Shown: positions 19,362 to 64,000, counted from the first letter of the stretch. The stretch: DNA of 64,000 nucleotides from an uncultured Planctomycetota bacterium (GCA_963823665.1 CAWGMQ010000004.1:2080001-2144000); one strand, 5' to 3'. Made by a program: numbers and translations. Notes: generated by a model from the letters alone, not told the origin.

Positions 19362-19916
19362 GATCATTGCGCAGTGATTTCCATCGGCTTGATCCTGTAC
19401 CTCAATTCCGCTCTCAGGCTATCGCGATTGCCGTGCCGTCAACAAGACGGCGGAGCAGCGCTTCGTCCGGAAATGGGCCTGGGGCAAGACGGGGCATGGC
19501 CGGGATGAAGCGTGTTTGTCGGTCGGCGCAACCTCTGACTTTAGAAAAACTTTCGTTGAATGGAGCCATCACCGGTTCCTTGTAAGAAGCTCCCTTTTGT
19601 AAGGTTGATCAAGCGGGGTCTGCCCGCAAAGTTTGACATCGCTTCGAGGATCGACAAAGGGCAGGGGAGCGAGCTTGATGCAAGAGAGTCTTTTTAGTTG
19701 GCGCTTGGCAACGACTTACGGCGTGGCTTGCCAGCCTGGAACTGTGGGCGGCAGGTTTCCGGCACGTGACTTGCTCTTAGTGGGCCGTCGCTGTGCAAGC
19801 GACAAATCCTTCCCGAGAAATTTTCCTAAAGTCTCCACGGCTCACTCCGGATTCGCTCATAGCGGCCGGGTCACGGCAAGGACCGGCCGGAAAACGACAA
19901 CGACACGGAGGTCCCG

Positions 19917-42324: not shown

Positions 42325-42770
42325 ATCGCCCCCTCCGCCACGATCAAAGCCGCCTAGCTCTGCAGCCCTTTGATCTGAAGTAATGGCGGTGGCCCAGCAG
42401 AAGCTCTCGGATGATTTTGAAGAATCGCGTCTGAGAATCGCTTAGCCAGCTCCCTATAGCGTTACAGAAGGGCCGGGGCGAGATCAAGCAACAGGAACCT
42501 GACCTGGGTCAACCTGGCTTTTTAGCGCTCCGAACCGAGCCGCAGGTCCTGCCATGTGATTGACCTGCCAACCCGCGCAAGCGGCAGTTGCGACGCGGCG
42601 ACCAAACGCTGCGATCGCCCTGTAGAAGCTGAAATCGTCGCAGCGCGCCGGGGTGCGGCAACACCCCGGCGGCTGCCTTCCAAGGCCGGGCTCGTCGCCA
42701 TCCGTACGCCAATCGGACGTCGAGGATGGTGCGCGCCTCATCCGGGCAAATGCCCAGAGCGAGATCCATC

Positions 42771-42968
42771 ATGCCGCGCAATTCGATCAACCGAAAGTAC
42801 CGTCCAGGCTTTGAGAACCTCGAGTCCAAGCAGCTTCTGTCGGCCGGCCTGCTTGCCCACGGCGTGCAGCCTGTGATGCAGACAAGTGCGCCGGTATCGT
42901 CCCAAGCCGAGCACCAGGGGATGAGCCCGGATGGCACCGGGACGGGACTTGTCATCATCACGTCCTGA
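42771..42968 (+). CDS. 65-aa peptide with an LEPRxLL-type motif
   Basis: RKYRPGFENLESKQLLS followed by only about 40 residues. Confidence 0.65.
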   Translation: MPRNSINRKYRPGFENLESKQLLSAGLLAHGVQPVMQTSAPVSSQAEHQGMSPDGTGTGLVIITS

Positions 42969-45677: not shown

Positions 45678-45718
45678 GGATGGGTTTCCCATTCGTCGCC
45701 CCGTCGTGCGTAACACAG

Positions 45719-47269
45719 TCACGACGCATGATCCAGCTCCAGTCCCACCGCGTGCCAATCCTCAGGCCGCAACTGCTGCACTGACTGCTGGACGCGTTTC
45801 ATGTCGCGGGTTGCGACATACGGCCGGGAGGCGGGAGATTCACCTTTGGTGGGTTCGACCAGATTGTGCAACTGATCGAGGTGCAGGGACAGCGGCTGGC
45901 GTGTCCAGACGGCGAACAGCCGCTCCTGCCCGGATGGCGGCGTCATCTCTACGTCCAAGATGTTCAGTGTGCGTTGCGCCTCGATCGGGGCCGAGGAATC
46001 GGCCGACTGCGGATCTGGATAGAGCAAGTTCAAATGTCCGGTCGGGCCGACGTTGAACACCGTCAGGTAGCCCGCCCGGTCGGCGATTGCCTCGATGCGC
46101 ACGTGGTCTCTGGTTCGCAGGCTAACCTGGTCGGGCGACTTTGGCACGCGTTTCATGTCGCGGGTTAGTCGATCGGGACGCGGGTGGGTGGCCGCCACGT
46201 GTTCATAACGGCCGCTGTTGACACGGCGGCTGACGTTGAGGCGAAGAGCCGCCGGTTTGTGCGGGCGAGCCTCGCCCTGCGGCGTGGATAGCGTGTCGGC
46301 CAGAAGCTGGTTGAGTGATCCTCGCAAGCTGTCGACGAACTCGCGCAGATTCGGTCGTTGATCCGGGCTCGACCTCAGGCCGGCGCGGATCACTCGCTCA
46401 AGCGGAGCGGGGAGCCCAAGGCACCTGGAATCCGGGTCGGGCAGGCCCATGGCGATCTGCGCTTTATAGTCAGAGATCTGCGTGCCGAGGAATGGCTGAA
46501 ACCCGGTCACGAGGTGAAACAGCGTCGCGGCCAAGCCGTAGACGTCAAGCGAAGGTGAAACCTTGCCGTCATATGCCTCGGGGGCCATGTAGGCGAGCGA
46601 TCCGGCGACGCTGGCGGGGTCGCCCAGCCACGAGCCCACTCCAAAGTCAGTCAGAAGCGCCTCGTCACGCTTCGGCTCCCAGAGAATGTTCGCCGGCTTC
46701 ACGTCGCGGTGGACAATTCCTTGCTTGTGGACCGCGAGCAACCCCTCGCCCACATCGGCGATATACCGGGCGGCTCGCTGCCAGAGGAGCGGCCCTTCTG
46801 CCTTCAACAGATCGGCAAGGGACCCGCCCGGCACGTATTGCATTACGAGGAAGTGCTGCTCGCCGACTGTCAGCCAGGTGTAAACCCGCACAACGTTGAG
46901 GTGAGCGACCTGAGTCAGCAGGTGTGCGTCCTTCCGGAGCACCTGCACGGCCCGCCGCCGCTCGTCGGGGGCGGTGCCAACCCTGAGTGTTTTCACTGCG
47001 ACCACTCGCGGCAGGTTCAAGTCCTGCGCCAGCCAGACCTCGCCGAACGCTCCGGAGCCGAGGAATTTGTACACGCGGTATCCGTGGATTCCCAGGTCGG
47101 GCATTGTCGTGCCGGTGGGCACGTCTTCAGGCGTCAGATCGTCGAGCATGCGCTGACAGTCAAAGCATTCCTCGACGTGCGCCTCGATCCAGGCATGCCA
47201 TGCCGGCCCGAGCGAGTCGTCTTGAGTCACGTATTGCTTCAGTTCCCCAGGCGCAGGACAAGCGGCCAT
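45719..47269 (-). CDS. ZAS (HxxxCxxC) + Ser/Thr kinase + DUF4384-like protein
   Basis: HVEECFDC; GSGAFG, VAVK, HRDVKPAN, DFG, APE; C-terminal RAGYLTVFNVGPTGHLNLLYP...GQERLFAVW resembles DUF4384. Confidence 0.85.
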   Translation of the reverse strand: MAACPAPGELKQYVTQDDSLGPAWHAWIEAHVEECFDCQRMLDDLTPEDVPTGTTMPDLGIHGYRVYKFLGSGAFGEVWLAQDLNLPRVVAVKTLRVGTAPDERRRAVQVLRKDAHLLTQVAHLNVVRVYTWLTVGEQHFLVMQYVPGGSLADLLKAEGPLLWQRAARYIADVGEGLLAVHKQGIVHRDVKPANILWEPKRDEALLTDFGVGSWLGDPASVAGSLAYMAPEAYDGKVSPSLDVYGLAATLFHLVTGFQPFLGTQISDYKAQIAMGLPDPDSRCLGLPAPLERVIRAGLRSSPDQRPNLREFVDSLRGSLNQLLADTLSTPQGEARPHKPAALRLNVSRRVNSGRYEHVAATHPRPDRLTRDMKRVPKSPDQVSLRTRDHVRIEAIADRAGYLTVFNVGPTGHLNLLYPDPQSADSSAPIEAQRTLNILDVEMTPPSGQERLFAVWTRQPLSLHLDQLHNLVEPTKGESPASRPYVATRDMKRVQQSVQQLRPEDWHAVGLELDHAS

Positions 47270-47283
47270 GACAACACCTCGCG

Positions 47284-47871
47284 TCAATTCGAATGTTCAA
47301 GGAGTTCGACTTCCTGCTGAAGCAGGGTCAGGACCTGATACTTTGCCTGGCTAACCGCGCCGACCTTCATGCCAAGCTCTCGGGCCACATCGGCACCTTT
47401 GCGGCATTGTTCCGCTATTTCCACATATGCGGACCAAGTGCGCGGCTCGACGCGGGCGCGTACGTTTTCTTTGGCTTTTTGCAGCAATTCCAGGTCGTAT
47501 TCCCGCGCGAGCCTTGCCAGCAGGTCCTCGCCTGCCTCTACCTCTTCCACAAGACCATCGCCGTCGACCACCCGCCGCCCTCGCTCTCTCTCCTTCAGGT
47601 CTGCCATCAAACGGTGCGTCACGGTTTTCAGGTATCCGCGGAAGGTTCTGGCGGGGTCGTAGACGAACTCCCTCAGTCGCCTGACCAGCAGGAGCATGAC
47701 TTCGTTAACCATGTCCTCGGTCTCACGCGGAAACCACCGGTGGCACCAACCGCTGATCATCGGGGCATAGCGCGCGTAAAACTCCTCCCATGCCTGTTGA
47801 TCTGCGGGGTCGTGGAGGCGGCCCAACAGGGTCCGGCTGGTCCGCGCTGGGTCGAAGCTGCCCGTAGTCAT
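47284..47871 (-). CDS. ECF RNA polymerase sigma factor
   Basis: TSRTLL...DQQAWEEFYARY, FRGYLKTV, VARELGMKVGAV; GAGG RBS before ATG 47871. Confidence 0.9.
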   Translation of the reverse strand: MTTGSFDPARTSRTLLGRLHDPADQQAWEEFYARYAPMISGWCHRWFPRETEDMVNEVMLLLVRRLREFVYDPARTFRGYLKTVTHRLMADLKERERGRRVVDGDGLVEEVEAGEDLLARLAREYDLELLQKAKENVRARVEPRTWSAYVEIAEQCRKGADVARELGMKVGAVSQAKYQVLTLLQQEVELLEHSN

Positions 47872-48055
47872 CGCTGGTACCTCGGTTCGACTTCGGAATC
47901 GCGACCATCCAACTCTCTGATAGGGGGATCGGAACGATTTCTCAGACGGGATTTCCATTGAAAGGTTTTCCGCCGAGTTCTGTACGAGATCACAGCGAGA
48001 GAAAGCGCAATGGGCGGAGTTCATGAGCTGTTCGGATTGTCTCTGAGATCCCGCC

Positions 48056-48198
48056 CCATCGACCCCTATCAGCCTACAGAGGGTCGGTGAGCCAAATCCA
48101 ATGATTTCAATACCATCCCTCCGAACACGGGAAGCCGATCGGCGTGCGCACCATCGCTGACCAGGTGTTCCGAACCTTGGTCTCGAATCCACAGGGAG
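48056..48198 (+). repeat. 143-bp direct repeat, copy 1
   Basis: Ungapped match to 54775-54917 (offset 6719), 24 mismatches by hand count, with an exact 25-mer GTGAGCCAAATCCAATGATTTCAAT. Confidence 0.9.
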
Positions 48199-48206
48199 AA
48201 ACAACA

Positions 48207-49985: not shown

Positions 49986-50261
49986 TCGCAAGTGAGGTCG
50001 AACTGGTTTCTGTCCTCGGTACACGATCGGTCGGCCGAGGAGGAGTCAGCCGGGAAGTCAACGTATAATGCCAGTTCTACGATCAATCGATCAGCAAGCG
50101 CTGGGAAGGTGACCCGCTACATGAATCGCGTCCGGTGATCGGTGCAGAAGTTGTGCTGCGGTGATCGGCAGGCGGTGGGCCTGGTGCTGGATGATGGCCA
50201 TTGAGGGAACCACGCTAGAGTGGCAATTTGCACTCAAACGGGGTTTGGGAGAAATGAACCC

Positions 50262-53200
50262 ATGGCCTTGAACCGCACTACTGGCGGTCTCATGCAGGAA
50301 CTCCACCGACTTTTTCGGCGAGCCATAAAGCTCCGCCAACAGGGTCGCTGTCAAGAGGCAATTGTCCGTCTGACTCACGCCCGAGACGCAGCTCGTCGCC
50401 ATCTGGGACTACACCATCCCGCCTATGCCACCAGCCTGAACAACCTAGCATTCCTGTATGCGGAGATGGGGGAATACGCGGTGGCCGAGCCTCTCTTCTA
50501 CGAGGCCCTCGGGATCTACCGCGCGACGCTGGGGGCGAACCACCCCGAGTATGCGGGTAGCCTCAACAACCTGGCGACGTTGTACCGGCATATGGGGGAC
50601 TACGACGCCGCCCAATCACTCTACTGCCACGCCCTGGAGATCCGCCGCGCGGTGCTGGGCGAGCATCACCCCGTCTACGCCAAGATTCTGAGCCACCTCG
50701 CGCTGTTGTACCAGGCGATGGGGGACTACGCGGCGGCCGAGCCCCTCTTCCGCGAGGCCCTCGGAATCTACCGCGCGACGCTGGGCGAGAGCCACCCCGA
50801 CTATACCGGCAGCCTAGACAACCTGGCGGGGCTGTACTGCGCGATCGGAGACCACGCGGCGGCCGCGCCCCTCATCCGGCTGGGGCTCGAAATCGTTCGC
50901 GCGGCGCGGGGTGATGACCACCCCGACTACGCCAGAAGCCTGGACCGCCTGGCGGGGCTGTATTGCGCGATCGGAGACCACGCGGCGGCCGAGCCCCTCT
51001 GTCGCCAGGCCCTGGAGATCCGCCGCGACGCGCTGGGCGAGAGTCACCCCGACTATGCCGCCAGCCTGAACAGCCTGGCGGCGCTATACTGCGCGATCGG
51101 GGACTACGTGGTCGCCGCGTCCCTCATCCGGCTGGGGCTCGAAATCATTCGCGCGGCGCGGGGTGACGACCACCCCGACTACGCCAGGAGCCTGGACAGC
51201 CTGGCGGGGCTATATTGCGCGATCGGGGACTACACCGCCGCCCTACCTCTCCACCGCCACGCCCTGGAGATCCGCCGCGCCGCGCTGGTCGAGAGTCACC
51301 CCGACTACGCCGCCAGCCTGGACAGCCTGGCGGGGCTGTATTGCGCGATCGGGGACCACGCAGCCGCCGCGCCCCTCTACCGCCAGGCCCTGGAGATCCG
51401 CCGCACGGCGTTGGGCGAGGACCACCCGGACTACGCCACCAGCCTGAGCAACCTCGAGGGGGTGTACCGAGCGATGGGGGACCACGACGCCGCTTTGCAT
51501 CTCTGCCGCCAGGCGCTGAAGATCCGCGGCACTGCGGTAGGCGAGGACCATCCCTCCTATGCCACCAGCCTGAACAGCCTGGCGGGGTTGTGCCGGGAGA
51601 TGGGGGACTACGACGACGACGCCACCAGCCTGAACAGCCTGGCGGGGCTGTATTGCGCGATCGGGGACTACGCGGCCGCCGCGCCCCTCTACCGCCAGGC
51701 CCTGGAGATCCGCCGCACGGCGCTGGGCGAGGACCACCCGGACTACGCCACCAGCCTAAGCAACCTGGCGGGGGCGTACCGAGCGATGGGGGACCACCCC
51801 GCCGCTGCCACCGGCCTGGACGGCCTGGCGGGGCTGTATTGCGCGATCGGGGACTACGACGCCGCCCTATCACTCTACGGCCGGGCCCTGGAGATTCGCC
51901 GCACGGCGCTGGGCGAGGACCACCCGGACTACGCCACCAGCTTAAGCAACCTGGTGGGGGTGTACCGAGCGATGGGGGACCACGCCGCCGCTTTGCACCT
52001 CTGCCACCAGGTGGTGCTGGAGATCCGCCGCACCCCGGCAGGCGAGGACCATCCCTCCGATGCCACCGGGCTGAGCAGCCTGGCGGGGTTGTGCCGGGAG
52101 ATGGGGGACTACGCCGCCGCCGTATCACTCTACGGCCGGGTCCTGGAGATCCGCCGCACGGCGCTGGGCGAGGACCACCCGGACTACGCCACCAGCCTGA
52201 GCAACCTGGCGACGTTGTACCAGGACACAGGTGACTACGCCGCCGCCCTAGCGCTCCACCGCCGCGCGCTGGAGATCCGCCGCGCCGCGCTGGTCGAGAG
52301 TCACCCCGACTATGCCGCCAGCCTGAACAGCCTGGCGGGGCTGTATTGCGCGATCGGGGACCGCGCGGCGGCCGCGCTCCTCTACCGCCAGGCCCTGGAG
52401 ATTCGCCGCACGGCGCTGGGCGAGGACCACCCGGACTACGCCACCAGCCTAAGCAACCTGGCGTGGGTGTACCGAGCGATGGGGGACCACGCCGCCGCTT
52501 TGCACCTCTGCCGCCAGGCCCTGGAGATCCGCCGCGCCGCGCTGGTCGAAAGTGACCCCGACTATGCCGCCAGCCTAGACAACTTGGCGGGGCTGTATTG
52601 CGCGATCGGGAACTACGCGGCCGCCGCGCCCCTCTACCGCCGGGCCCTGGAGATCCGCCGCACGGCGCTGGGCGAGGACCACCCGGACTACGCCACGAGC
52701 CTGAGCAACCTGGCGACGTTGTACCAGGACATAGGTTACTACGCCCCCGCCCTAGCCCACCACCGCCAGGCCCTGGAGATCCGCCGCACCGCCTTGGGCG
52801 AGTGCCACCCGCACTTTGCCATCAACCTGAGAAACCTGGCGGACTCGTGGGCCGCCTTGGGCCGAGCCTGGCTGGCTATGCCCCTCATGGAACAGCTCGC
52901 GTCCATCGAGGACCGGATGATCGGACAGGTCTTCGCGATCGGTTCCGACAGGCAGAGAATCGCATACCTCAGGACGGTCCTGGGCAATCTTCACACGTTC
53001 TTGTCTCTGGTACAGCAACACCTCGCCGACTCCCCCGCAGCCATCCGCGCCGCCCTAGACCTGGTATTGCGCCGTAAGGCGATCGCGGCCGAGGCGCTGG
53101 CCACCCAGCGCGATGCCGTGCTGGGAGGCAAGTATCCCGGATTGGAGCCCAAACTACGCGAGCTCGCCGCCCTGCGGCTGCAGATCGCCCGCAAGACACT

Positions 53201-54809: not shown

Positions 54810-54917
54810 GCCAAATCCAATGATTTCAATGCCATCCCTCCGAAGAAGCGAAGTCGATCGGCGTGCGCGCCGCCTCTGAGCAGGTGTTATGAGCCCTGGT
54901 CTCGAATCCACCGGGAG
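54775..54917 (+). repeat. 143-bp direct repeat, copy 2
   Basis: See copy 1; includes the last codons and stop of the TPR-CHAT gene. Confidence 0.9.
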
Positions 54918-54920
54918 CGG

Positions 54921-57900
54921 TCAACACGGTGTGACTGTTTTCTCGACCCGAGCCCACGGATCGGCGAAGCAGCAGTAGGCCAGCCAAGTGGGATCATTCG
55001 GGAATCGCAGGCGTACGCGGTGCCTCGCAGCCAACATGACCTCGCTGATGGGCAATCCCTGAGACATCAACTCGTAGAAGGCTTCGGCGAACACAAAGGC
55101 TGCCTGATCGGTGACCGGCCATAAGGTCCCCACGAACCCGCCACAGCCTAGCTCGACGAGTCGGGCGCCCCACGAGCCCAGGCGTGTGAGGGAGAAGCCG
55201 ATCCGCCCACTATGGCAGGTGTTGAAGAAGATTAGCGGCGAAGCCCCGCGCATCGCTCCGACGATCCGTGTTGAAAGCTCGGCTACACGGAATTCGCCAT
55301 CTTCCATGCGTACGGCGGAGGCGTCTGCGGCGAACGTTCCTCCGAACGCTCCGTGACCGATCAGGTGGAGAAGATCAAATCCCCCGCGTTCGAAGGCATC
55401 GATCAGCTCGAGCCGGCGGGCTGGGAGTACCCGGACCTGGGCGCCGGAAGCCTCCAAAGAGCGAAGGATGGCTAACTCTTCATCAGCAGACTCGAGGCCG
55501 AATTCGGTGCGTCGATCGGCAGACTCAATGTAACACGCCGTCTTGTCGGCGAGCAGGACCATGTCACGGGTCAGTTCCGGTCCTCTCTGCGGCGCAGCTA
55601 CCCCTCCCTGAGCCATGGCAAAAATGCGGTTGAATGAGAACCGCTGGACTGGCGGTCTTCCGCGCAGCCACCGTGTCAGTGCAAAAGCCTCCCCCCAGAA
55701 CACGTCCTCGGCAATCAGCTCCCCCGCGATCGGATCGGTCCGGTAGGGCTTGATCAATTCCCAGGGGATGTGCGGTTCATCGGACAGGATCAAGACTTTC
55801 CTGATTCCTCGTTGGCGGAAGGTCCAGCACATGTCTTGCAACGTCTTGGGAAGGACCTGGTCGAAGAGATTGCAGCCCACCCTGGCAAGCGTTGCTGAGA
55901 CGTCCTCGATCGATATGCCGGGTTGGCTCGCGAGCGATCCTAACGCGTGGAGTTGATTTTCGACCCAGTCCGCGACATCGGTGTTGAGGTCTTGCGTCCC
56001 CAGATCGCCGTCCAGGACCGGGAGGTCCTTCAACCTCGGATCTGTCGATGAAATGACGAAGTGCAGCCGACCGGCTAGCCCGGAATGACGGTGTTGAAAG
56101 ACCTTGATGACCAGGTCGGGAGCGTCAAGGCCGGGCCCCGATCCGAGGTTCAGCTCCGCTCCCGTCGCAGCGCGATCCGGCGAGTCTTCTAGATCGACAG
56201 CGACCACGTCGGGAGCTAGGTCCACGGAACCAACCGGCCGGCCTGATTGGGCGAAGTCAATCATCACGCGGCCCGGACCGACTTTCCTTCCCCGGAGACG
56301 AAAGACGGCCGCGGGTGACTTTTCTAGCAGCGGTACGATGATCTCAGCCCTGGCCGGACCTTCGATCTCAAAATTCTCGGCGGCTACATCGATGGTCACA
56401 CGGATGTCCGGCGGCGGTTTCCCAGGCTCGGTGGGCTGCGAGACGAGGAGCGACATCGTCACGTCATGGTCGTGCGGCTTCGCAAGCTTCTTGACTTCGC
56501 CGGTGGGAAGTGTTTTCTCGGCCAGAATGATCTGCACGCGCAGGTTGTAGGATTTAGCAACGTGAACCCTGGCTGGGAATGAAATATCGGTGTGTCGCCG
56601 GATTGATTCGGACGATGCGACGTTAGGTGCCGGGTTGGCTTTCTCTTCGGACGTTTCGGGATTCAAAAACTGCAAGCAGCAGCGGGCACGGGCAATGGCC
56701 TGCTTCATATAAAGGTGAGAGTTCTGGATTGCGATGGCGGCATCGCAGGCTAACTTGGCCAGCAAATCCAGGTCTTCACGGCTGAATTGCTTCCGGTCGG
56801 TGGTGTCGACTTGGATGATCCCGAGCGCTTGCTGATCGGGGATGAGTAGAGGGGCGCACATTACCGAGCGAATCTTGAGATCGGTGATGGAAGCGCTGGT
56901 CGGAAAGTTCATGTCGGCATCGACTTCAGTGCTCAAGATCGCCTTCTTCTGTCCCAGCACTTCATTAACCAGCGACTTGCTGAGCTTCCACTGGGTCTCG
57001 CCATCCGGAGTCGCCGTGGCGACTCTCATGTTCTTTTCGGTCCGGTATTTGAAGGCCGTGCGCAGCAATCGATTGGACATCGGGTCATCCAGGCATAGGA
57101 AGAGCTGCTCGGCCTGGGGGAAAAGCTCCATTAAAGAGTCGAGGATCTTGGACGCGAGCATGTCAATTGTGAGGTCGCTTGAAGGATCGGGGATGCACCG
57201 GGGCTCTCCGGGATCTCTCCGACGTTCGGGATATACGAAGGTCGCGATCTCTTCGGTGCTCAGAAATGCTGTGCCCTTTCGAGCCGACACCGCATACTTG
57301 ATGATGGCGATGAGCGCTTGGAAACATGGACCGGGGTACTCATGGTTGTAGGCGGGGGGGGCATGAAGAGGTAATCGCCCTGCGTGGAAGTCCGACAGAT
57401 GGCCAGCCAGGCGGCATAGCTCTGTGTAGATGGCCACAGGGGGCTGACGGCCTGGATAGGTGATCGCCTCCAGGCATGAAGACACGCCGTTAAGTGCTGA
57501 CAGTTTACGCAGCCGTTCGGCCTGATGTTGCGGCTCGTCCAATCGCGGACCAAGTAATTCTTTGGTCTTTTCCCACTCGAGTAACATGTTGACTTTCTCG
57601 AGGTACGCACCCTCGAGCGCGAGATCGCCATCGGCGAGCTGCCGGGACAATCTGATGATGTCGTCGAGTAACGCACCCTCGAGTGCGAGATCGCCATCGG
57701 CGAGCAGCCGGTACAATCTGTCGACCGCATCGCGAATGGCGTCAACGAGCGAGCGTAACTCCTGCAACAAAGGTGGCCAGGCGCCGATCACCAGTAAAGG
57801 CGGCATCATCTGCACGTTGATTTCCGGTGGCCCCTCCGGCGACAATTGCCAGATGTAACACAATGGCGAGATCTCGAAGCCCGTAGGTTCGCTGTGCGAG

Positions 57901-58271
57901 ATGAGCAACCGAGCTTTCGGACGCTGTGCTTTGACCGAATCGGCCTCGCTCGCGCTGCTGCTCTTTTCTCGTTCACCTTCGAGATCCTCTTTCCGGCCAG
58001 CAGACCCGATGTCGGCGCCCATTCGCTTAAAATTGGTCTGGCTCGGGAGTAACCCAGAGGTTGTCAGGTAGACGATGACCCAGTTGCGACCGGCTAGTAA
58101 ACTCCGCACGTCAACTGGGTCGACAATCGAATCATTCTGGATCGACACCTCGGTACCGTCTTTGAAACGGATCTGGCACGAGCGTACTGACACCCAGCCA
58201 TTGGCGAGCGCAGTCGTATCCAGTTCAAGGGAGCGCAAACCCCAATTGAAAGAAGACGAATGGTCGTCCAT
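54921..58271 (-). CDS. TssK-like + GAF + beta-rich linker + CHAT protease fusion
   Basis: WGLRSLELDTTALANG...FKDGT, PPLL, YTELCRLAGHL...PAYNHEYPGPCF (TssK-like); IRSVMCAPL...LGIIQVD...FSREDLDLL (GAF); IPWE, LHLIGHG, FFNTCHSG, GTLWPV (CHAT). Confidence 0.8.
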   Translation of the reverse strand: MDDHSSSFNWGLRSLELDTTALANGWVSVRSCQIRFKDGTEVSIQNDSIVDPVDVRSLLAGRNWVIVYLTTSGLLPSQTNFKRMGADIGSAGRKEDLEGEREKSSSASEADSVKAQRPKARLLISHSEPTGFEISPLCYIWQLSPEGPPEINVQMMPPLLVIGAWPPLLQELRSLVDAIRDAVDRLYRLLADGDLALEGALLDDIIRLSRQLADGDLALEGAYLEKVNMLLEWEKTKELLGPRLDEPQHQAERLRKLSALNGVSSCLEAITYPGRQPPVAIYTELCRLAGHLSDFHAGRLPLHAPPAYNHEYPGPCFQALIAIIKYAVSARKGTAFLSTEEIATFVYPERRRDPGEPRCIPDPSSDLTIDMLASKILDSLMELFPQAEQLFLCLDDPMSNRLLRTAFKYRTEKNMRVATATPDGETQWKLSKSLVNEVLGQKKAILSTEVDADMNFPTSASITDLKIRSVMCAPLLIPDQQALGIIQVDTTDRKQFSREDLDLLAKLACDAAIAIQNSHLYMKQAIARARCCLQFLNPETSEEKANPAPNVASSESIRRHTDISFPARVHVAKSYNLRVQIILAEKTLPTGEVKKLAKPHDHDVTMSLLVSQPTEPGKPPPDIRVTIDVAAENFEIEGPARAEIIVPLLEKSPAAVFRLRGRKVGPGRVMIDFAQSGRPVGSVDLAPDVVAVDLEDSPDRAATGAELNLGSGPGLDAPDLVIKVFQHRHSGLAGRLHFVISSTDPRLKDLPVLDGDLGTQDLNTDVADWVENQLHALGSLASQPGISIEDVSATLARVGCNLFDQVLPKTLQDMCWTFRQRGIRKVLILSDEPHIPWELIKPYRTDPIAGELIAEDVFWGEAFALTRWLRGRPPVQRFSFNRIFAMAQGGVAAPQRGPELTRDMVLLADKTACYIESADRRTEFGLESADEELAILRSLEASGAQVRVLPARRLELIDAFERGGFDLLHLIGHGAFGGTFAADASAVRMEDGEFRVAELSTRIVGAMRGASPLIFFNTCHSGRIGFSLTRLGSWGARLVELGCGGFVGTLWPVTDQAAFVFAEAFYELMSQGLPISEVMLAARHRVRLRFPNDPTWLAYCCFADPWARVEKTVTPC

Positions 58272-58404
58272 TGGCGTGGAGTCTGCACTCCCCTCGTCAG
58301 GGCAATGCTTCTACGTCGCCCTGGAGCAAGGCGTTGGGACCGAGGCGTTCTGTTCGATTATCCTCGCCTCGGAGCCGGCGGACTAGTGGAGTGCCCCCAT
58401 CTGG

Positions 58405-59268
58405 TCATTGCGGCCGAACCGCACCGGCGCTACGATGAACCTTGGCCGGCGCGGAGGCACACGCACCGCAGGGGTTCGCGACGCCAGGCGGTTGGCGAAT
58501 TCTCGTCTCGAACTGGGATTCTGATCGGGCCCCGATGCCGGCCGTTCATTTCGCGCTGCGCCGGAGGTTTGTTTGGAGAAGATCAAGGTCCTGCTCTTTG
58601 CCGCGAACCCGCGTGGCACAGGCCCGCTTGATCTGGCGCGCGAGTTCCGGGAGATCGACGAGGAAGTCCGCCTGGCGACGTTCCGCGGCGCGGTTGAGCT
58701 GATCCTCGTTCCCGGTACCCGGCCGGTTGATCTGCTGCGCAAACTCAACGAGAACCAGCCGCAGGTTGTGCATTTCAGCAGTCACGGCAGTCCGGATGAG
58801 ATCATCCTTGAATCCGGGGAGCCAGAGGTCGAGTCTTCAGATTTGGACGCTGCTGTTCTCCGTTCGGCTGATGAACGGGACATGAAGAAGGTGGGCTCGG
58901 AAGAGGTCGTCGGCTTCGGCCAGGGCGAGCCTCAAGTGGTCAGCAAGTCGGCGCTCGTGAATGTGCTGCGGTCCTGCAACGAGGGAAATCTCCGGCTGGT
59001 GGTGCTGAACGCCTGCAGCACCCGGCCGCAGGCCGAGGCGCTGACCGAAGTCGTCGACTGCGTGGTGAGCATGAACCAGACCATCACGGACCGGGCAGCG
59101 ATCAAGTTCGCGGCCTCGTTTTATGGGGCGCTGGCGTTTGGTCGCTCGGTGCAAAAGGCGTTCGAGCAGGGAGTGGCGCGGTTGAGCGCGGAAGGGATCG
59201 CTGAGTCGGATACGCCTGAGCTGCTGGTGCGGGCGGGTGTCGACGCCGCGCAGGTTGTGCTGGTGGGC
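58405..59268 (+). repeat. Segmental duplication copy 1 (leader + CHAT domain)
   Basis: Highly similar to 62449-63313 at the DNA level. Confidence 0.9.
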
Positions 59269-61374
59269 TCGGCGGCGGGCGATGGTGGCGAGATTGCCGC
59301 CGGATACTTCGCCGTGCAGCGCGAGGCTATCGAGGAACACGTCCGACGATTCGTCGGCCGCGTTGCCGTCTCGGAGGCTCTCGATCGATTCTTGGCACGA
59401 GAGTCGAGGGGTTATTTCGTTATCCGCGGTGCGCCGGGCCAGGGCAAATCGGCGGTTGCATGTCACTTGATCAAGTCCCGGGGCTGGCCGCATCATTTGA
59501 TCAACCGGACGGGTGGCCGATCAGATGTACGCTTGATTCTCCGGTCACTTATCGCGCAGCTCGCGCCCAGGCTGGAGCCGGACCGGACCCTACCCGATTC
59601 AATTCCGGAGCTGGCCAAGTCGTTCGAGGATCTGCTAGCCCGAGCCACCGCGAAAATTGGTCGACTCGTCCTCGTCGTCGACGCACTTGATGAGCTCTCC
59701 GAGGGAGCAGGCCCGGATCCGCCGTTCCTGGTTACCGAGGGGCTGCCGGCGAACGTGTACGTGATCGTGACGGCGCGCCCCGGGGATCGTCTCGATCAAC
59801 TTCTCGAAGCGCTCCACTCCACACCGCATGAGCTCTACGACCTCGGTCCGCTTGAACCTCACGAGGTCGGCGCAATTCTCCGCGCTGGGCGCCCGGACTT
59901 CGGCGATGCGAGGATTGCTCTGGCCGGGAAAGCGTCCAAGGGCAACCCGCTCTTTCTGCGAGCTGTCGCCGACGCGCTCGAGCGCGACCCGAATTATGAC
60001 CTACGCGACCTGCCCTCGTCAGTCGAAGGATTCTTCCGGCGGGCGGTCGGCGGGCTGAGCGGCCGGCGCGATCCCCTGCTGACCGACGTGCTGGGATTGC
60101 TGGCCGCGGCGCTCAAACCGCTCGCGCTGCGCGAGCTGGCCCAGATTACCGGGACGACACAACGGGAGATGCACGACAGGGGTATCCGCCCCATCCGCCA
60201 ATTCCTGCTCGAAGTCGACGAAGGTTACAGCTTTTACCATGCCCGATTCCACGAATTCGCCGTGCACGAATTGCTCTACGAGGACGAGTTGCCCCGTTTT
60301 CACGCGAAACTGGCGTCGTGGCTGCGCCGTCCCGAGTGCTTATCGTCGAATTATCGGTATCTTGCGCTGGCGCATCACCTCGGCCGAGCCGGCGACCGCG
60401 ATGGGTTGTGGGCGACGGTCGAGCCCGGCTTCCTCCGCGAGAAGATCCGGCGATTTGACTATGGCGTGCTGGAGGACGTGGCGCTCCTGGCCCGTGACGC
60501 GATCGACACCGGCGACCCGAGCCTTGTGGGACGTTGCATTGAACTGGTCGAGGGTCTGCGTGAGGTCGCCGGTGGTGACCTCATCGACGAGGCCCGCCGC
60601 GCCATTCAGGGCCGTCGTCTGGTCGTAACTGCAAAGCGAAATCGGATCGAAGCCCCCGATCCACCGCGCATCCCAGGGATGGACCTCTACATCGGCATGC
60701 TCCCCAAGTCGACCGTGGGGGCTGACGTCGTGGAGGCCCTGCGGACCCGGGACGGCCTCATTCTAGCCTTGGGTGACGCGCCCGGAGTAGGACTTAAGGG
60801 GGCGTTCGTCGCGCGATTCGTCGGCGGCCTCGTGCGTCGTCTGGCAGAGCAGCCAGGGGCGTTGCATTTGAATGAGCTCTTGGAGGAAGTCGACCGGATC
60901 CTCTCGCCACATCCTTTTTTCGACCTCATCTCGCTCCAATGCGTGGCCGTGAACTCCGCGACGGGCACGCTTACCATCGCCGGGGCTGGTCATCCGCACC
61001 CTGTCCTGTACTCGCCCCGCCGTGGGCGGTGCGACCGCTTACCTGTCGGGGACGACTTGCTACTGGCGCGGCAGCGAGTCGGTGACTCGTCCGCCCGTCG
61101 GCGCCAGCGCCACTTCGAGATTCAACCGCGCGACGTCCTGATCATGGTCTCCGACGGGCTGACGGAGGGTCACGGCATGACCGCCCTACCATACGGCTAT
61201 CGCTTCGAGAGGATGATCCCGGCTCTTTCTCACCTGGGTACCCGGGCGATCGGCGAGGCCATACTCGAGGACTGGCTGGCCCACTCGGAGGGTGCCGACT
61301 ATGTGGACGACGTGACGGTCGTCGTTCTGGCGATGAATGAGAATGGCCCAAAAGAGTCCCCTCCAGAGGAATGA
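58573..61374 (+). CDS. CHAT protease + STAND/NACHT-like NTPase + PP2C/SpoIIE phosphatase domain
   Basis: VHFSSHG and VLNACST; GAPGQGKS and LVVDALDE; VGAD, LGDAPG, AGHPHP, SDGLTE, DDVTV. Confidence 0.88.
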   Translation: MEKIKVLLFAANPRGTGPLDLAREFREIDEEVRLATFRGAVELILVPGTRPVDLLRKLNENQPQVVHFSSHGSPDEIILESGEPEVESSDLDAAVLRSADERDMKKVGSEEVVGFGQGEPQVVSKSALVNVLRSCNEGNLRLVVLNACSTRPQAEALTEVVDCVVSMNQTITDRAAIKFAASFYGALAFGRSVQKAFEQGVARLSAEGIAESDTPELLVRAGVDAAQVVLVGSAAGDGGEIAAGYFAVQREAIEEHVRRFVGRVAVSEALDRFLARESRGYFVIRGAPGQGKSAVACHLIKSRGWPHHLINRTGGRSDVRLILRSLIAQLAPRLEPDRTLPDSIPELAKSFEDLLARATAKIGRLVLVVDALDELSEGAGPDPPFLVTEGLPANVYVIVTARPGDRLDQLLEALHSTPHELYDLGPLEPHEVGAILRAGRPDFGDARIALAGKASKGNPLFLRAVADALERDPNYDLRDLPSSVEGFFRRAVGGLSGRRDPLLTDVLGLLAAALKPLALRELAQITGTTQREMHDRGIRPIRQFLLEVDEGYSFYHARFHEFAVHELLYEDELPRFHAKLASWLRRPECLSSNYRYLALAHHLGRAGDRDGLWATVEPGFLREKIRRFDYGVLEDVALLARDAIDTGDPSLVGRCIELVEGLREVAGGDLIDEARRAIQGRRLVVTAKRNRIEAPDPPRIPGMDLYIGMLPKSTVGADVVEALRTRDGLILALGDAPGVGLKGAFVARFVGGLVRRLAEQPGALHLNELLEEVDRILSPHPFFDLISLQCVAVNSATGTLTIAGAGHPHPVLYSPRRGRCDRLPVGDDLLLARQRVGDSSARRRQRHFEIQPRDVLIMVSDGLTEGHGMTALPYGYRFERMIPALSHLGTRAIGEAILEDWLAHSEGADYVDDVTVVVLAMNENGPKESPPEE

Positions 61375-61377
61375 TCG

Positions 61378-62319
61378 ATGGCAACGAGAAAGCCCACTCT
61401 CTTCTCGACAGAGTCCGTTGGCAACGTAGCCGTTTTTCGGATCGAGACGACGACGTTGTTCGACGAGCGTGACGTAAAACGTTTGTTTGACGAACTCGCT
61501 GAGGCCATCGGCCCGCGTTCACAAATCATCGTTGATCTGGCGCAAGTTCTTCATATGAGCAGCACGGCCCTATCAAAGCTGGTACTGATGCATAGGCAAT
61601 CAAGAATCAGAGGGGGCCAGGTCGTCCTGTGTAACTTGGCACCGAAAGTGAGCGAAGCGTTCCGGACCAGCAAGCTCGACAAGTTGTTTGAGATCGCGTC
61701 GAGCCTGGAGGAGGCCCTGGCCGCCCTGCACTGGTCCTTGGAGGTCAGGTGCCCAATCGCGGGTTGTGAGGGGACCAGTCTGTCCCACGAACCATCCATA
61801 GCCGAGCAGGGAGGAGTGCAGTGCTGCCGGTCATGTGGCTGCCGGTTCTGGTTGGCTCCGTTCCAGCTCTCCCCGCGCGGCGAGGCCCGGGTCGCGGTGT
61901 CGCGCTTCGCGATCCCTACCTATGAGCAGGAGCAGATTCGCGCGGCGCTCGGTGTCATCGTGGTTTTTGATATCGTCGGCCGGCTGGACCTATTCGCCTC
62001 CGAGGCGTTGGTCGACGCCTGGCGGTCCGTGCCACAGTCGTGTCGTGCTTTGCTCGATCTCCGCGCGGCGACGGAGTTGAGCGAACCGGGCCTTCGTTTG
62101 CTCAAGGGGCATGTCGGCATCAATAATACCTCGCCCAATCGGATCGTCGTCTTGGTCGACCAAGATCGGTTTACTCGAACGCACGCGATTATTTCGAATG
62201 CTTGCATCACGACCAACCACGACGAAGCAATGTCCGCACTGCACGGTTCTCTTGCATCGGACGAATCGCCGACTCCTCTCATGGTGCTGGCGCGAAAGGT
62301 CGACACAACGATGGAATAA
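61378..62319 (+). CDS. STAS + Cys-rich (Zn-ribbon-like) + degenerate STAS protein
   Basis: VDLAQVLHMSSTALSKL...LCNL...LDKLFEI; CPIAGC...CCRSCGC; GRLD...LDLRAATELSEPGL. Confidence 0.8.
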   Translation: MATRKPTLFSTESVGNVAVFRIETTTLFDERDVKRLFDELAEAIGPRSQIIVDLAQVLHMSSTALSKLVLMHRQSRIRGGQVVLCNLAPKVSEAFRTSKLDKLFEIASSLEEALAALHWSLEVRCPIAGCEGTSLSHEPSIAEQGGVQCCRSCGCRFWLAPFQLSPRGEARVAVSRFAIPTYEQEQIRAALGVIVVFDIVGRLDLFASEALVDAWRSVPQSCRALLDLRAATELSEPGLRLLKGHVGINNTSPNRIVVLVDQDRFTRTHAIISNACITTNHDEAMSALHGSLASDESPTPLMVLARKVDTTME

Positions 62320-62448
62320 CCCCAGTTGCCTCACGCGGAGCCACCAGCCGGGCGGCGCGAGTTCTTGTGATCGACACCTTGACGCTGGAAGCCACTCGTG
62401 GCCGTAGATCCGTGCTAATCGGGCCCGGGGAACACTGGTCCGGACAGA

Positions 62449-63313
62449 TCATTGCGGCCGAACCGCCGCCGCGCTACGATGACCTATGGCCGGAGCGGTA
62501 GCCGAAATGCCTGAGCAGTTCGCGGCGCCAAGAACGCGGCAAATTCTCTTCTGAAACTGGGATCCTGAACCAGTTCAGACGAGGGCCATGCATTTCACGC
62601 CGTGTCGGAGGTCCGTTTGGAGAAGATCAAGGTACTGCTCTTCGCCGCGAATCCGCGGGGCACAGCACCGCTTGATCTGGCGCGCGAGTTCCGCGAGATC
62701 GACGAAGAAGTGCGTCTGGGCACGTTCCGGAGCGCGGTTGAGCTGATCCTCGTTCCCGGCACGCGGCCGGTTGATCTGCTGCGAAAGCTCAACGAAAACC
62801 AGCCACAGATCGTGCATTTCAGCAGTCACGGTAGTCCGGACGAGATCGTCCTCGAATCCGGGGAGCCAGAGGCCGCGGATGTGGGTTTGGGCGGCGCCAT
62901 TCTTCGTTCGGCTGATGAACGGGACATGAAGAAGGTAGGCCCGGTCGAGGTCGTCGGCTTGGGCCATGGCGAGCCTCAAGTGGTCAGCAAGTCGGCGCTT
63001 GTGAATGTGCTGCGTTCCTGCAACCAGGGTAATCTCCGGCTGGTGGTGCTGAATGCCTGCAGCACCCGGCCACAGGCCGAGGCGCTGACAGAGGTCGTTG
63101 ACTGTGTTGTAAGTATGAATCAGACCATCACGGACCGGGCAGCAATCATGTTCGCGGCCTCGTTTTATGGAGCGCTGGCATTTGGTTGCTCCGTGCAAAA
63201 GGCGTTCGAGCAGGGAGTGGCGCGGTTGGGCGCGGAGGCGATTATCGAGTGCGACACGCCTGAGCTGGTGATAAGGAGGGGAGTTGACGCCGCGCAGGTC
63301 GTGCTGGTTGGAC
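62449..63313 (+). repeat. Segmental duplication copy 2 (leader + CHAT domain)
   Basis: See copy 1. Confidence 0.9.
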
Positions 63314-64000
63314 TGGCACCGAAAACGCCTGCGACCCCGGCCCCCGAGGCTTCGTTCATCGTACCATTTCCGCGGAACGGCGAGTTTGTCGGACGGGATG
63401 GCGACCTGCAGCGGCTGCATGCTCAATTGTCTGGTCCGGGATCGGGCCCGGTCGGCATCCGCCCGGCTGGTCTGACTGGGATGGGCGGCATTGGCAAGAC
63501 CCAGCTCGTGGTCGAGTACGTGTACCGACATCGGGACGATTATCCGGATGGCATCTTCTGGATCGACGCGGCCGGACCTCTGGCTGAAGGCTTTGCCAGG
63601 CTGGCGACGGATCATCGTTTGCGCTGGGCCGAGAACGAACAGCCTCGCGATGAGCAGATTCAGGCGGTGTTCAAGACGTTCGACTCCAGGCCACGAGCGC
63701 TACTGGTGCTCGACAATCTACCTGACCCGTCGGCATTAGCTGTCTCGCTTTCAACTGGCTGTGTACCGGAGGATTTGCGCTGCCGGGTGCTGTTCACAAC
63801 GCGCCGGCACGACCTGGGGCGGTTTGTGGGGATTGAAGTCACGATCCTGCCCGAGGAGCCGGCTTTGCAGCTCCTGCTTCGGCACCCCTCACGCCGCGCG
63901 GCTCTGATACCATCCCATACCGATCACGAGCACGCCCGCGCAATTGCGCGGATGCTCGGCCGCTTACCCCTGGCGCTGGAGCTGGCTGGGGCATACCTTG
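62617..64000 (+). CDS. CHAT protease + NB-ARC (STAND) NTPase, runs off the window
   Basis: Not in the ORF track because there is no stop. TTG start with GGAGG RBS; VHFSSHG and VLNACST; PFPRNGEFVGR, GMGGIGKT, LLVLDN, LFTTR, GRLPLALELAG. Confidence 0.9.
   Translation, partial: MEKIKVLLFAANPRGTAPLDLAREFREIDEEVRLGTFRSAVELILVPGTRPVDLLRKLNENQPQIVHFSSHGSPDEIVLESGEPEAADVGLGGAILRSADERDMKKVGPVEVVGLGHGEPQVVSKSALVNVLRSCNQGNLRLVVLNACSTRPQAEALTEVVDCVVSMNQTITDRAAIMFAASFYGALAFGCSVQKAFEQGVARLGAEAIIECDTPELVIRRGVDAAQVVLVGLAPKTPATPAPEASFIVPFPRNGEFVGRDGDLQRLHAQLSGPGSGPVGIRPAGLTGMGGIGKTQLVVEYVYRHRDDYPDGIFWIDAAGPLAEGFARLATDHRLRWAENEQPRDEQIQAVFKTFDSRPRALLVLDNLPDPSALAVSLSTGCVPEDLRCRVLFTTRRHDLGRFVGIEVTILPEEPALQLLLRHPSRRAALIPSHTDHEHARAIARMLGRLPLALELAGAYL

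What the first reader, a model, noticed from the sequence alone, without database searches (positions are those of the whole stretch)
45719..64000. Candidate CRISPR-independent caspase-like cascade: four CHAT proteases with different sensor modules beside an ECF sigma, a ZAS-kinase-DUF4384 protein and a STAS protein
Seen: within about 18 kb there are four CHAT domains, all keeping the catalytic His and Cys (THG/SAC, GHG/NTC, and SHG/NAC twice). They are fused to a TPR array, TssK-like+GAF, STAND+PP2C and NB-ARC respectively. An ECF sigma factor, two kinases, a double-STAS protein and an SGNH hydrolase are adjacent; there are no cas genes or CRISPR array in the window. Established: CHAT domains are clan CD caspase/separase relatives and STAND NTPases are NLR-like sensors. 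From recall, CRISPR-linked CHAT proteases control sigma factors or downstream proteases (type III-E Csx29/Csx30; type III-B SAVED-CHAT/PCaspase with sigma, inhibitor and kinase genes). Inference: this locus is a multi-input version in which interchangeable sensors drive one protease-kinase-sigma output (defence, cell death or development).
Basis: partly seen in the sequence, partly recalled or inferred. Interest (0 to 1): 0.9.

Follow-up and report, generated by a model that had tools for sequence, protein, structure and literature searches.

The report
Caspase cascade with exported signal peptide
In a planctomycete bacterium, a CRISPR-free gene island joins immune-sensor proteases that all carry the same short candidate cut-site tag with a gene switch that probably turns on a small exported peptide encoded next to a membrane receptor kinase, which suggests an untested alarm circuit that may pass from inside one cell to its neighbours.

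Summary
In detail: four CHAT domains with His/Cys, an ECF sigma and a cytoplasmic ZAS-kinase-DUF4384. The island is larger than reported (~28 kb). Past the window lie a C14 caspase-HEAT-pseudokinase-kinase and a receiver-like ORF; upstream lie a membrane kinase-TPR and an unannotated 65-aa exported-type peptide.

Three new links, all from sequence:
(1) An R-[DN]-M motif lies in all four CHATs, the caspase linker and twice in DUF4384 (7 in 1,867 aa against 6 in 95,131 control aa) and is conserved in homologs.
(2) A candidate ECF promoter has 5 matches in 16.5 Mb, 4 of them in this island.
(3) The peptide lies tail-to-tail with the receptor kinase in 7 of 7 close homologs.

A CHAT or C14 gene lies near the DUF4384 kinase in 8 of 10 related genomes. 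No cas or SAVED gene was found here.

Best model (0.5): sensor-gated CHATs cut at RDM, activate the caspase and disable the anti-sigma kinase; sigma then makes the peptide. No cleavage, binding or phage link is shown, and two genes are frameshifted in this assembly. The scan earlier noted an exported sigma/kinase-DUF4384/TPR-CHAT trio with a shared motif on other DNA; this cytoplasmic form and the peptide were not found in those notes.

The parts
42431..42457 (+). Candidate ECF promoter CTGAGA-N16-CCTAT in front of the peptide gene
   Evidence: present before the peptide in 7 of 7 intact homolog loci
42771..42968 (+). Unannotated 65-aa gene: Planctomycete-type export leader (R..FE.LE.K.LLS), then about 41 aa ending PDGTGxGxVIITS; tail-to-tail with the receptor kinase
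   Evidence: dN/dS below 1 in 15 of 15 pairs; no Pfam hit
42973..45680 (-). Single-pass receptor Ser/Thr kinase with an extracytoplasmic TPR domain; two frameshifts near the 5' end in this assembly (about 45670 and 45205), intact ortholog in G033
   Evidence: TM helix at 44257-44313
45719..47269 (-). Cytoplasmic ZAS (HxxxCxxC)-Ser/Thr kinase-DUF4384, 516 aa; two RDM motifs (46154-46162, 45800-45808) in an Ig-like domain
47284..47871 (-). ECF sigma factor; keeps an acidic sigma2.2 motif (ETED), not STTA
47920..47945 (-). Candidate autoregulatory ECF promoter of the sigma operon
48043..48069 (+). Divergent copy of the promoter, in front of the SGNH gene
   Evidence: SGNH follows the same promoter in G012 C67
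48207..49985 (+). Exported or membrane-anchored PKD-SGNH hydrolase, probable sigma target
50220..54809 (+). TPR (126-bp repeats)-CHAT protease, no signal peptide; RDM at 53595, SRDL at 54045
54769..54917 (+). 149-bp degenerate copy (83%) of the promoter/5' region at 48050-48198, a trace of rearrangement
54921..58271 (-). TssK-like-GAF-DUF7363-CHAT; RDM at 55560; found in this genome only
58573..61374 (+). N-terminal CHAT-STAND-wHTH-PP2C(SpoIIE); RDM at 58876 in an insert between His and Cys
61378..62319 (+). STAS protein (second STAS-like half without a Pfam hit); pairs with the PP2C gene here and in G030
62617..64000 (+). N-terminal CHAT-NB-ARC-WD40 (1356 aa, ends about 2.7 kb past the window). 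Past the window it is followed by C14 caspase-HEAT-pseudokinase-kinase (window-equivalent 66691-69947, one 5' frameshift) and a promoter plus 133-aa receiver-like ORF (70229-70630)

Best explanation
The island is one cytoplasmic, CRISPR-independent caspase circuit with a transcriptional output. Step 1 (inferred from STAND/TPR biology): a trigger bound by the WD40, TPR or GAF parts switches on the fused CHAT proteases. Step 2 (inferred; the motif is shown, cleavage is not): the proteases recognise a shared R-[DN]-M tag, probably cutting after Arg. They cut the loops in their own domains and the linker after the catalytic Cys of the C14 caspase, which activates it, as SAVED-CHAT does to PCaspase. 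Step 3 (inferred by analogy with Csx30): CHAT or C14 cuts the RDM loops of DUF4384 on the ZAS-kinase, which disables this anti-sigma and frees the ECF sigma; the kinases and PP2C/STAS set the threshold. Step 4 (promoter shown by sequence, sigma dependence inferred): sigma transcribes itself, an exported SGNH hydrolase, a receiver-like protein and a 65-aa exported peptide. Step 5 (most speculative): the peptide's GTGxGxVIIT strand acts on the TPR ectodomain of the receptor kinase encoded tail-to-tail with it. The likely purpose is defence or stress-induced dormancy/death in a large-genome planctomycete.
For: Co-occurrence among 100 relatives: RDM-type DUF4384 kinase in 10; C14-HEAT in 7, of which 6 are shared; strong N-CHAT in 6, all shared; peptide in 4, all shared. 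A CHAT or C14 gene lies in the fetched neighbourhood in 8 of 10. One genome of another family has C14-kinase-kinase next to kinase-DUF4384. The two 120-protein hit lists share 19 exact contig lengths. Motif: 7 in 1,867 aa against 6 in 95,131 control aa, and RDM is the only tripeptide shared by four domain types. The Arg is invariant in 120 of 120 C14 linkers while the 10-15 residues upstream vary. TRDMK occurs in 90 and 96 of 119 DUF4384 at its two sites. One contig pair shares the variant RNME in both proteins. The exported C7 and C11 loci of the same genome lack RDM in their CHAT domains and share other motifs between CHAT and DUF4384 (read by eye). The first RDM lies in a low-confidence loop of an Ig-like fold. 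The N-CHATs are closest to SAVED-CHAT 8TL0 (E 3e-15). The C14 has the acidic DC motif associated with Arg-P1 specificity (PMC8283722 passages). Promoter: 4 of 5 genome-wide matches lie in the island; 3 in the window against a shuffle mean of 0.05; 5 of 11 looser matches in G033 lie in its island. Peptide and receptor are linked in 7 of 7 close homologs.
Against: Nothing biochemical is shown. The RDM and GTG motifs were found post hoc, and could be structural or auto-processing sites; the second DUF4384 RDM starts a predicted helix. One further contig pair shows only a partial motif match. Gene order is shuffled, and N-CHAT/RDM genes also lie far from any sigma. Two neighbourhoods (G015, G058) show no CHAT or C14 gene. 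The strict promoter precedes sigma in only 4 of 10 aligned regions (2 more degenerate; absent in G012, G055 and G040), and was not seen directly in front of the CHAT or C14 genes. The looser promoter pattern is at control level genome-wide. The caspase and receptor genes are frameshifted in this assembly. Sampled genomes are kin (about four genera for the peptide). Csx30 cleavage is not after Arg and needs no single residue (PMC10028731 passages), so CHAT specificity need not be Arg.
Confidence: 0.5

Rival explanations
1. RDM is a self-processing or bait (pseudo-substrate) loop, not a relay site. Each protease matures or restrains itself in cis, and DUF4384 is a PCi-like inhibitor or decoy that buffers the proteases. 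Sigma is released by some other route, such as zinc loss or phosphorylation.
For: RDM sits inside the protease domains themselves. N-CHAT/RDM proteins occur alone elsewhere in these genomes. DUF4384 is often fused to proteases (bioRxiv 2022.08.17.504292 passage; 23 cyanobacterial orthocaspases in PMC8283722). PCi is both cut by and inhibits PCaspase.
Against: DUF4384 is fused to a ZAS-kinase next to sigma, the layout of a cleavable anti-sigma. Truncated DUF4384 3' ends still lie directly before TPR-CHAT genes. Motifs differ locus by locus between the three DUF4384/CHAT loci of G000.
Confidence: 0.25
2. An accreted, partly decaying island: a common planctomycete ECF/kinase pair, a receptor/peptide pair and independent NLR-like CHAT effectors that gather at one integration hot spot and share no output.
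For: The genome has 22 CHAT and 8 other C14 matches. The order is shuffled, there are duplications and repeats and frameshifts, TssK-GAF-CHAT is unique, and the same-genus genome G001 (84% complete) gave no strong match to the core genes.
Against: One motif runs through non-homologous domains, one promoter is nearly confined to the island, and the C14/DUF4384 pairing recurs, including in another family.
Confidence: 0.15
3. A phosphorylation relay: the receptor kinase senses an outside cue and, with the ZAS-kinase and PP2C/STAS partner switching, activates sigma; the proteases are downstream or parallel effectors (developmental or stress signalling rather than defence).
For: Four kinase domains, PP2C and STAS are present. 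Kinase-linked ECF groups are typical of Planctomycetes (PMC7826278 and PMC8999054 passages).
Against: The sigma keeps acidic sigma2.2 residues in all 10 aligned sequences rather than STTA, and has a ZAS partner. PP2C/STAS occurs in only one other neighbourhood. This model leaves the RDM tags on DUF4384 unexplained.
Confidence: 0.1

Closest known systems
Haliangium ochraceum type III-B/CBASS-derived SAVED-CHAT - PCaspase - PCc-sigma - PCi - PCk (bioRxiv 10.1101/2023.06.23.546230; parts 1-3 of 5 of the text read)
   Same: CHAT + C14 caspase + sigma + Ser/Thr kinase in one cluster; the N-terminal CHATs are closest in the PDB to SAVED-CHAT 8TL0.
   Different: No SAVED, Cas10 or cyclase found in the locus. 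The sensors are STAND/WD40, TPR and GAF. The caspase is fused to HEAT-pseudokinase-kinase, and the kinase carries ZAS and DUF4384. There is a shared RDM tag, a candidate sigma promoter and an exported peptide/receptor pair, none of which appears in the text read.
Type III-E Craspase: Csx29 TPR-CHAT, Csx30, Csx31, CASP-sigma (bioRxiv 2022.08.17.504292 and PMC10028731, passages)
   Same: TPR-CHAT plus ECF sigma plus a protein with an N-terminal sigma-binding part and a C-terminal domain with a cleavable loop; one group of Csx30 C-terminal domains is DUF4384.
   Different: No Cas7-11. The anti-sigma candidate is a ZAS-kinase. There are several proteases. No Csx30 chain appeared in the fold searches.
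DdvA-DdvS of Myxococcus xanthus (PMC11506125, passages)
   Same: ZAS anti-sigma, ECF sigma and TPR-CHAT linked to a defence island; CHAT proposed as the site-1 protease.
   Different: DdvA is one transmembrane protein with a periplasmic CHAT. Here ZAS-kinase-DUF4384 and all CHATs lack TM or signal segments.
EACC1/EACC2-caspase and STAND conflict systems of multicellular bacteria (PMC7159879 and PMC8195603, passages)
   Same: Constant N-terminal caspase-fold domain with variable STAND/kinase/repeat C-termini; EACC2 neighbourhoods include an ECF sigma and a TPR protein; planctomycetes are among the enriched hosts.
   Different: No EACC1 gene seen; the caspase scores 104 bits against the 140 cut-off of NF047832. 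DUF4384, the RDM tag, the promoter and the peptide do not appear in the passages seen; the source-data supplements were not read.
Kinase-associated ECF groups (ECF43 EcfP/PknT; ECF59-62, ECF217) (PMC7826278, PMC8999054 passages)
   Same: ECF sigma next to a Ser/Thr kinase in a planctomycete.
   Different: The acidic sigma2.2 motif is kept, a ZAS domain is present, and caspase-fold proteases are linked.
Plant metacaspase - PROPEP/Pep - PEPR receptor-kinase danger signalling (recalled, no call)
   Same: Logic only: intracellular caspase-fold protease, small exported peptide and receptor kinase.
   Different: No homology shown; here the peptide appears to be a transcriptional output with its own export leader and has no RDM site.

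Membership tests
Type III-B SAVED-CHAT/PCaspase system | SAVED sensor fused to CHAT | tested here: not met
   No SAVED Pfam hit in any island protein; PADLOC SAVED_CHAT matches cover only the CHAT part
Type III-B SAVED-CHAT/PCaspase system | Cas10/Cmr or CD-NTase in the cluster | tested here: not met
   RAMP and cas1 matches lie elsewhere; the Cmr operon is about 350 kb away with its own Card1. No cyclase hit among the island proteins scanned
Type III-B SAVED-CHAT/PCaspase system | CHAT + C14 caspase + sigma + Ser/Thr kinase gene set | tested here: met
Type III-B SAVED-CHAT/PCaspase system | PCi inhibitor homolog | not tested
   No PCi sequence or model was fetched
Type III-B SAVED-CHAT/PCaspase system | CHAT cleaves and activates the caspase | not testable with these tools
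   needs biochemistry
Type III-E Craspase | Cas7-11 effector | tested here: not met
   No RAMP match in or near the island
Type III-E Craspase | Csx30-like substrate with sigma-binding N-terminus and cleavable C-terminal domain | tested here: inconclusive
   DUF4384 is named as one Csx30 C-terminal group; the model is Ig-like, best Z 9.5 (rmsd 2.0, 90 aligned) to complement C5, and no Csx30 chain is listed
Type III-E Craspase | TPR-CHAT with His/Cys dyad and adjacent ECF sigma | tested here: met
Avs/AVAST (bacterial NLR defence) | N-terminal effector - STAND NTPase - C-terminal repeat sensor | tested here: met
   CHAT-NB-ARC-WD40; CHAT-STAND-PP2C lacks a repeat sensor
Avs/AVAST (bacterial NLR defence) | Score within a described Avs family | tested here: not met
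   Avs1b 27.8 bits against a cut-off of 1500; PADLOC 18.8 bits
EACC1-caspase two-gene system | EACC1-associated caspase above cut-off with an upstream EACC1 gene | tested here: not met
   NF047832 104 bits, below 140; the gene upstream of the caspase is CHAT-NB-ARC-WD40
EACC2-caspase system | EACC2 domain N-terminal to the caspase | not tested
   No EACC2 model was searched specifically; the C14 protein starts directly with the caspase domain
Phosphorylation-activated ECF (ECF43 type) | STTA instead of acidic DAED in sigma2.2 | tested here: not met
   ETED/AADD/EVDD/EADD in the alignment of 10 sigmas; definition from PMC8999054
DdvA-type transmembrane ZAS/TPR-CHAT anti-sigma, and the exported sigma/kinase-DUF4384/TPR-CHAT trio of earlier scan notes | TM helix between the cytoplasmic part and an exported DUF4384 or CHAT | tested here: not met
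   No TM-like segment before DUF4384 in 119 of 120 homologs (the one hit is a kinase helix); no N-terminal hydrophobic leader on the four CHATs; the C7 and C11 loci do have them
Planctomycete cell-surface signal peptide (PF07595) | N-terminal R..[LF]E.LE.[RK].LL motif on the 65-aa peptide | tested here: inconclusive
   The regex matches the peptide and the N-termini of large surface-type proteins of the same genome; no Pfam hit at E 1; the motif consensus is recalled, its role is from PMC8567305 passages

The most novel reading that the evidence does not exclude
A bacterial innate-immune circuit with both inside sensing and cell-to-cell warning. NLR-like sensors fire a caspase cascade addressed by a locus-specific three-residue barcode; the freed sigma makes an exported peptide ('bacterial cytokine') whose GTGxGxVIIT strand is read by a receptor kinase TPR domain on neighbouring cells and primes the same regulon.
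Probability: 0.2. Interest if true: 0.96.

Novelty: new variant of a known kind. Interest (0 to 1): 0.82.

Why it matters
The characterised CHAT-caspase-sigma cascades are triggered by CRISPR or CBASS signals, and their cut sites and sigma targets are mostly unknown. This island offers a version wired to NLR-like sensors. It comes with a predicted shared cut site in six proteins, a predicted sigma promoter with four targets and a candidate ligand-receptor pair, so each step can be tested with point mutants. It gives DUF4384 a testable role (cleavable or bait domain). It adds a caspase-pseudokinase-kinase family (312 hits) and a previously unannotated peptide family (36 cluster hits). If the peptide is a ligand, it would show peptide/receptor-kinase danger signalling coupled to caspases in bacteria.

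Tried and rejected
Complex prediction of a C14 domain (G033 ortholog) with the window's DUF4384: no answer, score 0.00, neither for nor against. Foldseek of DUF4384 against the PDB: no match at E 0.001. VIA gave only generic Ig-like folds; the likeness to macroglobulin domains is not taken as function. A model of one exported partner protein was low-confidence (pLDDT 54) and was not searched. Single-sequence locus scans were poor: 1 locus in genome contigs and 0 in metagenomes; the alignment gave 27 mostly short loci, 22 of them under 6 kb. Viral contigs: no relative. Rfam 40-64 kb: nothing. The loose promoter pattern is uninformative genome-wide. The idea that the sigma/kinase pair beside the type III-B operon is a CRISPR-linked copy of this system was rejected: its kinase has no DUF4384 and no CHAT is adjacent. 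The idea that SGNH is a bystander was dropped after it appeared behind the same promoter in G012. The idea that the 149-bp repeat is a CHAT remnant was dropped: it is a promoter/5' region copy. Literature searches found no description of this island, the RDM tag or the peptide. The library lacks most subscription papers, and the supplements of the Csx30 preprint (figs S13-14), the ECF reclassification and the Kaur papers were not seen and may list such neighbourhoods. The whole genome was not available as a file, so control counts rest on fetched stretches (203 control ORFs).

Full report
Setting. The window is G000:C4:2,080,001-2,144,000 of a 16.46-Mb, 12-contig genome. Named homologs are from Isosphaeraceae/Isosphaerales planctomycetes. 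The genome has 22 CHAT matches, 8 other C14 matches and 4 DUF4384 matches. All four DUF4384 lie beside TPR-CHAT genes.

Observation. The two N-terminal CHATs and their upstream DNA are a duplication. Beyond the window the last gene ends in WD40 repeats and is followed by a C14 caspase-HEAT-kinase-kinase and a 133-aa ORF resembling receiver-fold OKR_DC_1_N clusters (the Atlas hit is a lead only). The first kinase of the caspase protein lacks the catalytic Asp (HG[SG][IV]KPSN) in the window-genome copy and in the common family patterns, so it is a pseudokinase. Cas1 and RAMP genes lie elsewhere; a type III-B operon with Card1 is about 350 kb away. The caspase gene has one, and the receptor kinase gene two, frameshifts near the 5' end, where the G033 orthologs are open. 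Many relatives show similar breaks, so assembly error is plausible but was not shown.

Conservation. In 100 relatives the RDM-type DUF4384 domain was found at E below 1e-20 in 10, all of the own family. The C14-HEAT part was found in 7, six of them among those 10. The N-terminal CHAT was found strongly in 6, all among the 10, and weakly in 4 others. The same-genus genome G001 gave no strong match to any of these. In the fetched neighbourhoods a CHAT or C14 gene lies near the DUF4384 kinase in 8 of 10; G015 and G058 show none. The caspase is the adjacent gene in G008, G021, G030 and G037, and about 16 kb away in G033. Of 27 metagenome loci, 22 are under 6 kb; 5 show a C14 or CHAT gene, including 3 of the 5 long ones. 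In a phylum sample of 400, one genome of another family (G238) had the caspase, next to a kinase-DUF4384. The top-120 lists of the two families share 19 exact contig lengths. TssK-GAF-CHAT was found in 0 of 100, and STAND-PP2C with STAS only in G030. So the core is sigma + ZAS-kinase-DUF4384 + caspase and/or CHAT, with exchangeable sensors and shuffled order. The distribution is patchy, as in conflict systems of multicellular bacteria (PMC7159879, PMC8195603; passages).

Topology. Kinase-DUF4384 has no TM segment before DUF4384 in 119 of 120 homologs, and none of the four CHATs has a hydrophobic leader, whereas the C7 and C11 loci of the same genome are of the exported type. Earlier scan notes describe that exported trio and a shared motif. 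I had found the motif here before reading them, and sequence look-ups of the DUF4384 kinase, the caspase and the peptide returned nothing.

The RDM tag. R-[DN]-M occurs twice in DUF4384, once in each CHAT and once in the linker after the caspase's catalytic Cys: 7 in 1,867 aa against 6 in 95,131 aa of 203 control ORFs (nominal binomial p 2e-10; 4e-9 with the duplicate dropped). RDM is the only tripeptide common to DUF4384 and the three CHAT types. The motif was chosen post hoc, so conservation is the better test. In 120 caspases the Arg column is invariant, D/N is 99% and M/L 96%, while the preceding linker is variable. In DUF4384, TRDMK occurs in 90 and 96 of 119 at the two sites. In 13 further N-CHAT loci, 10 have RDM, 1 has RDL and 2 show none. 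In N-CHATs the tag lies in a roughly 30-aa insert between His and Cys that SAVED-CHAT (8TL0, the closest PDB entry) lacks. One of 20 same-contig pairs shows the variant RNME in both DUF4384 and caspase, one shows a partial match, and the rest keep RDM in the caspase or are uninformative. The C7 locus shares RG[KT]GxKAR, and the C11 locus RG[IT]P, between DUF4384 and CHAT (by eye). The DUF4384 model (pLDDT 77) is an Ig-like sandwich with the first RDM in an unstructured loop and the second at the start of a helix. Csx30 is cut in a loop of its C-terminal domain, and one group of these domains is DUF4384 (PMC10028731 and bioRxiv 2022.08.17.504292; passages). Orthocaspases are reported as Arg-P1 (PMC8283722; passages). 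Hence the inference that RDM is a cut or bait site; the complex prediction gave no answer.

The sigma regulon. Upstream alignments revealed CTGAGA-N15/16-CCTAT. It has 5 matches in the genome, 4 in this island: before the peptide gene, the sigma operon, SGNH and the receiver-like ORF; the reversed control pattern has 4 matches genome-wide. The window has 3 against 0.05 expected. It precedes the small ORF in 6 of 6 loci, and sigma strictly in 4 of 10 (2 degenerate, 4 absent). In G033, 5 of 11 looser matches are in its island, although the looser pattern is at control level overall. SGNH follows the same promoter in G012. The sigma keeps acidic sigma2.2 residues, unlike the phosphorylation-activated STTA type (PMC8999054; passages), which favours inhibition by the ZAS domain.

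The peptide and the receptor. The promoter at 42431 leads to an unannotated 65-codon gene. It was found in 4 of 100 relatives, all with the RDM-type DUF4384; it has 16 homologs in the 90% set and 36 hits among 50% representatives, mostly 64-80 aa. dN/dS is 0.31-0.81 in 15 of 15 pairs. Its N-terminus matches the motif at the start of large surface-type proteins of the same genome, described as a planctomycete cell-surface signal peptide (PMC8567305; passages), though Pfam gave no hit. The conserved C-terminus is P[DC]GTGxGxVIITS. All 7 receptor ectodomains at 53% identity or more have the peptide and promoter tail-to-tail, and an eighth pair is fragmentary; these come from four genera. More distant receptors instead have convergent 150-240-aa ORFs, several with hydrophobic leaders, that carry the same Gly-turn plus hydrophobic strand. 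A post-hoc pattern hit 12 of 16 loci at 30% identity or more and 2 of 14 below, 16 times in 33,672 aa of convergent ORFs against once in 164,428 control aa. One such ORF carries SPDGTGKGIIIVT almost exactly. These ORFs have no Pfam hit above cut-off. The peptide looks like a minimal form of this partner family. Whether it activates, inhibits or stabilises the receptor is unknown.

Verdict. Works like: the Haliangium SAVED-CHAT to PCaspase cascade joined to Csx30/CASP-sigma-style anti-sigma cleavage. Member of: neither (no SAVED, Cas10 or Cas7-11), nor a described Avs, EACC1 or ECF43 family. Shown by sequence: domains, dyads, co-occurrence, shared tag, island-restricted promoter, peptide-receptor linkage. 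Inferred: every activity, the order of the cascade and the defence role. Nine literature searches found no description, within the limits of the library and of unseen supplements. New variant of a known kind, interest 0.82; the peptide-alarm reading has probability 0.2 and would deserve 0.96.

Noticed in passing
G000:C7 829-841 kb (L008, L059) and G000:C11 50-61 kb (L009): Two exported-type modules: TM kinase-DUF4384 and signal-peptide TPR-CHATs (the C7 ones with a PDZ insert); each shares its own Arg-Gly motif between DUF4384 and CHAT.
   Followed up: partly
G000:C4 about 2.497-2.505 Mb (L088): Type III-B cmr operon with Card1 and a short Csx3-like ORF (name from recall); no repeat array seen in the 40 kb scanned; an ECF sigma/ZAS-kinase-TPR pair lies 2.5 kb downstream.
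   Followed up: partly
G000:C4 609-624 kb (L090): Four C14 caspase-FGE-sulfatase genes with a kinase and a divergent ECF sigma.
   Followed up: no
G000:C6 323-328 kb (L010): Alpha/beta-hydrolase next to a CHAT-PLD fusion.
   Followed up: no
G000:C6 1.222 Mb (L095:7885-12315): TIR-CHAT-STAND-TPR protein, an NLR-like candidate.
   Followed up: no
G000:C6 1.380 Mb (L094): A frameshifted paralog of the island TPR-CHAT with two RDM motifs, without sigma or DUF4384 in the 20 kb fetched.
   Followed up: partly
L015:12277-19675 (12-20 kb past the window): nSTAND1-WD40 followed by TPR genes, separated from the island by an NHL-repeat gene; link not tested.
   Followed up: no
L139-L146, L158, L159: Family of 150-240-aa ORFs without a Pfam family, several with hydrophobic leaders, tail-to-tail with TM kinase-TPR genes across the family; conserved W...F.x.L.F...Y...W...GTGxG pattern.
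   Followed up: partly
window 57587-57718: 66-nt tandem duplication inside the TssK-like part of the TssK-GAF-CHAT gene.
   Followed up: no
L106 (G055 C107) and L114 (G030 C4): Only the 3' end of DUF4384 remains directly before TPR-CHAT (the kinase is deleted in L106), suggesting an ancestral order sigma - kinase-DUF4384 - TPR-CHAT.
   Followed up: partly
window 19863-20330: 156-aa open frame starting with the planctomycete export-leader motif.
   Followed up: no
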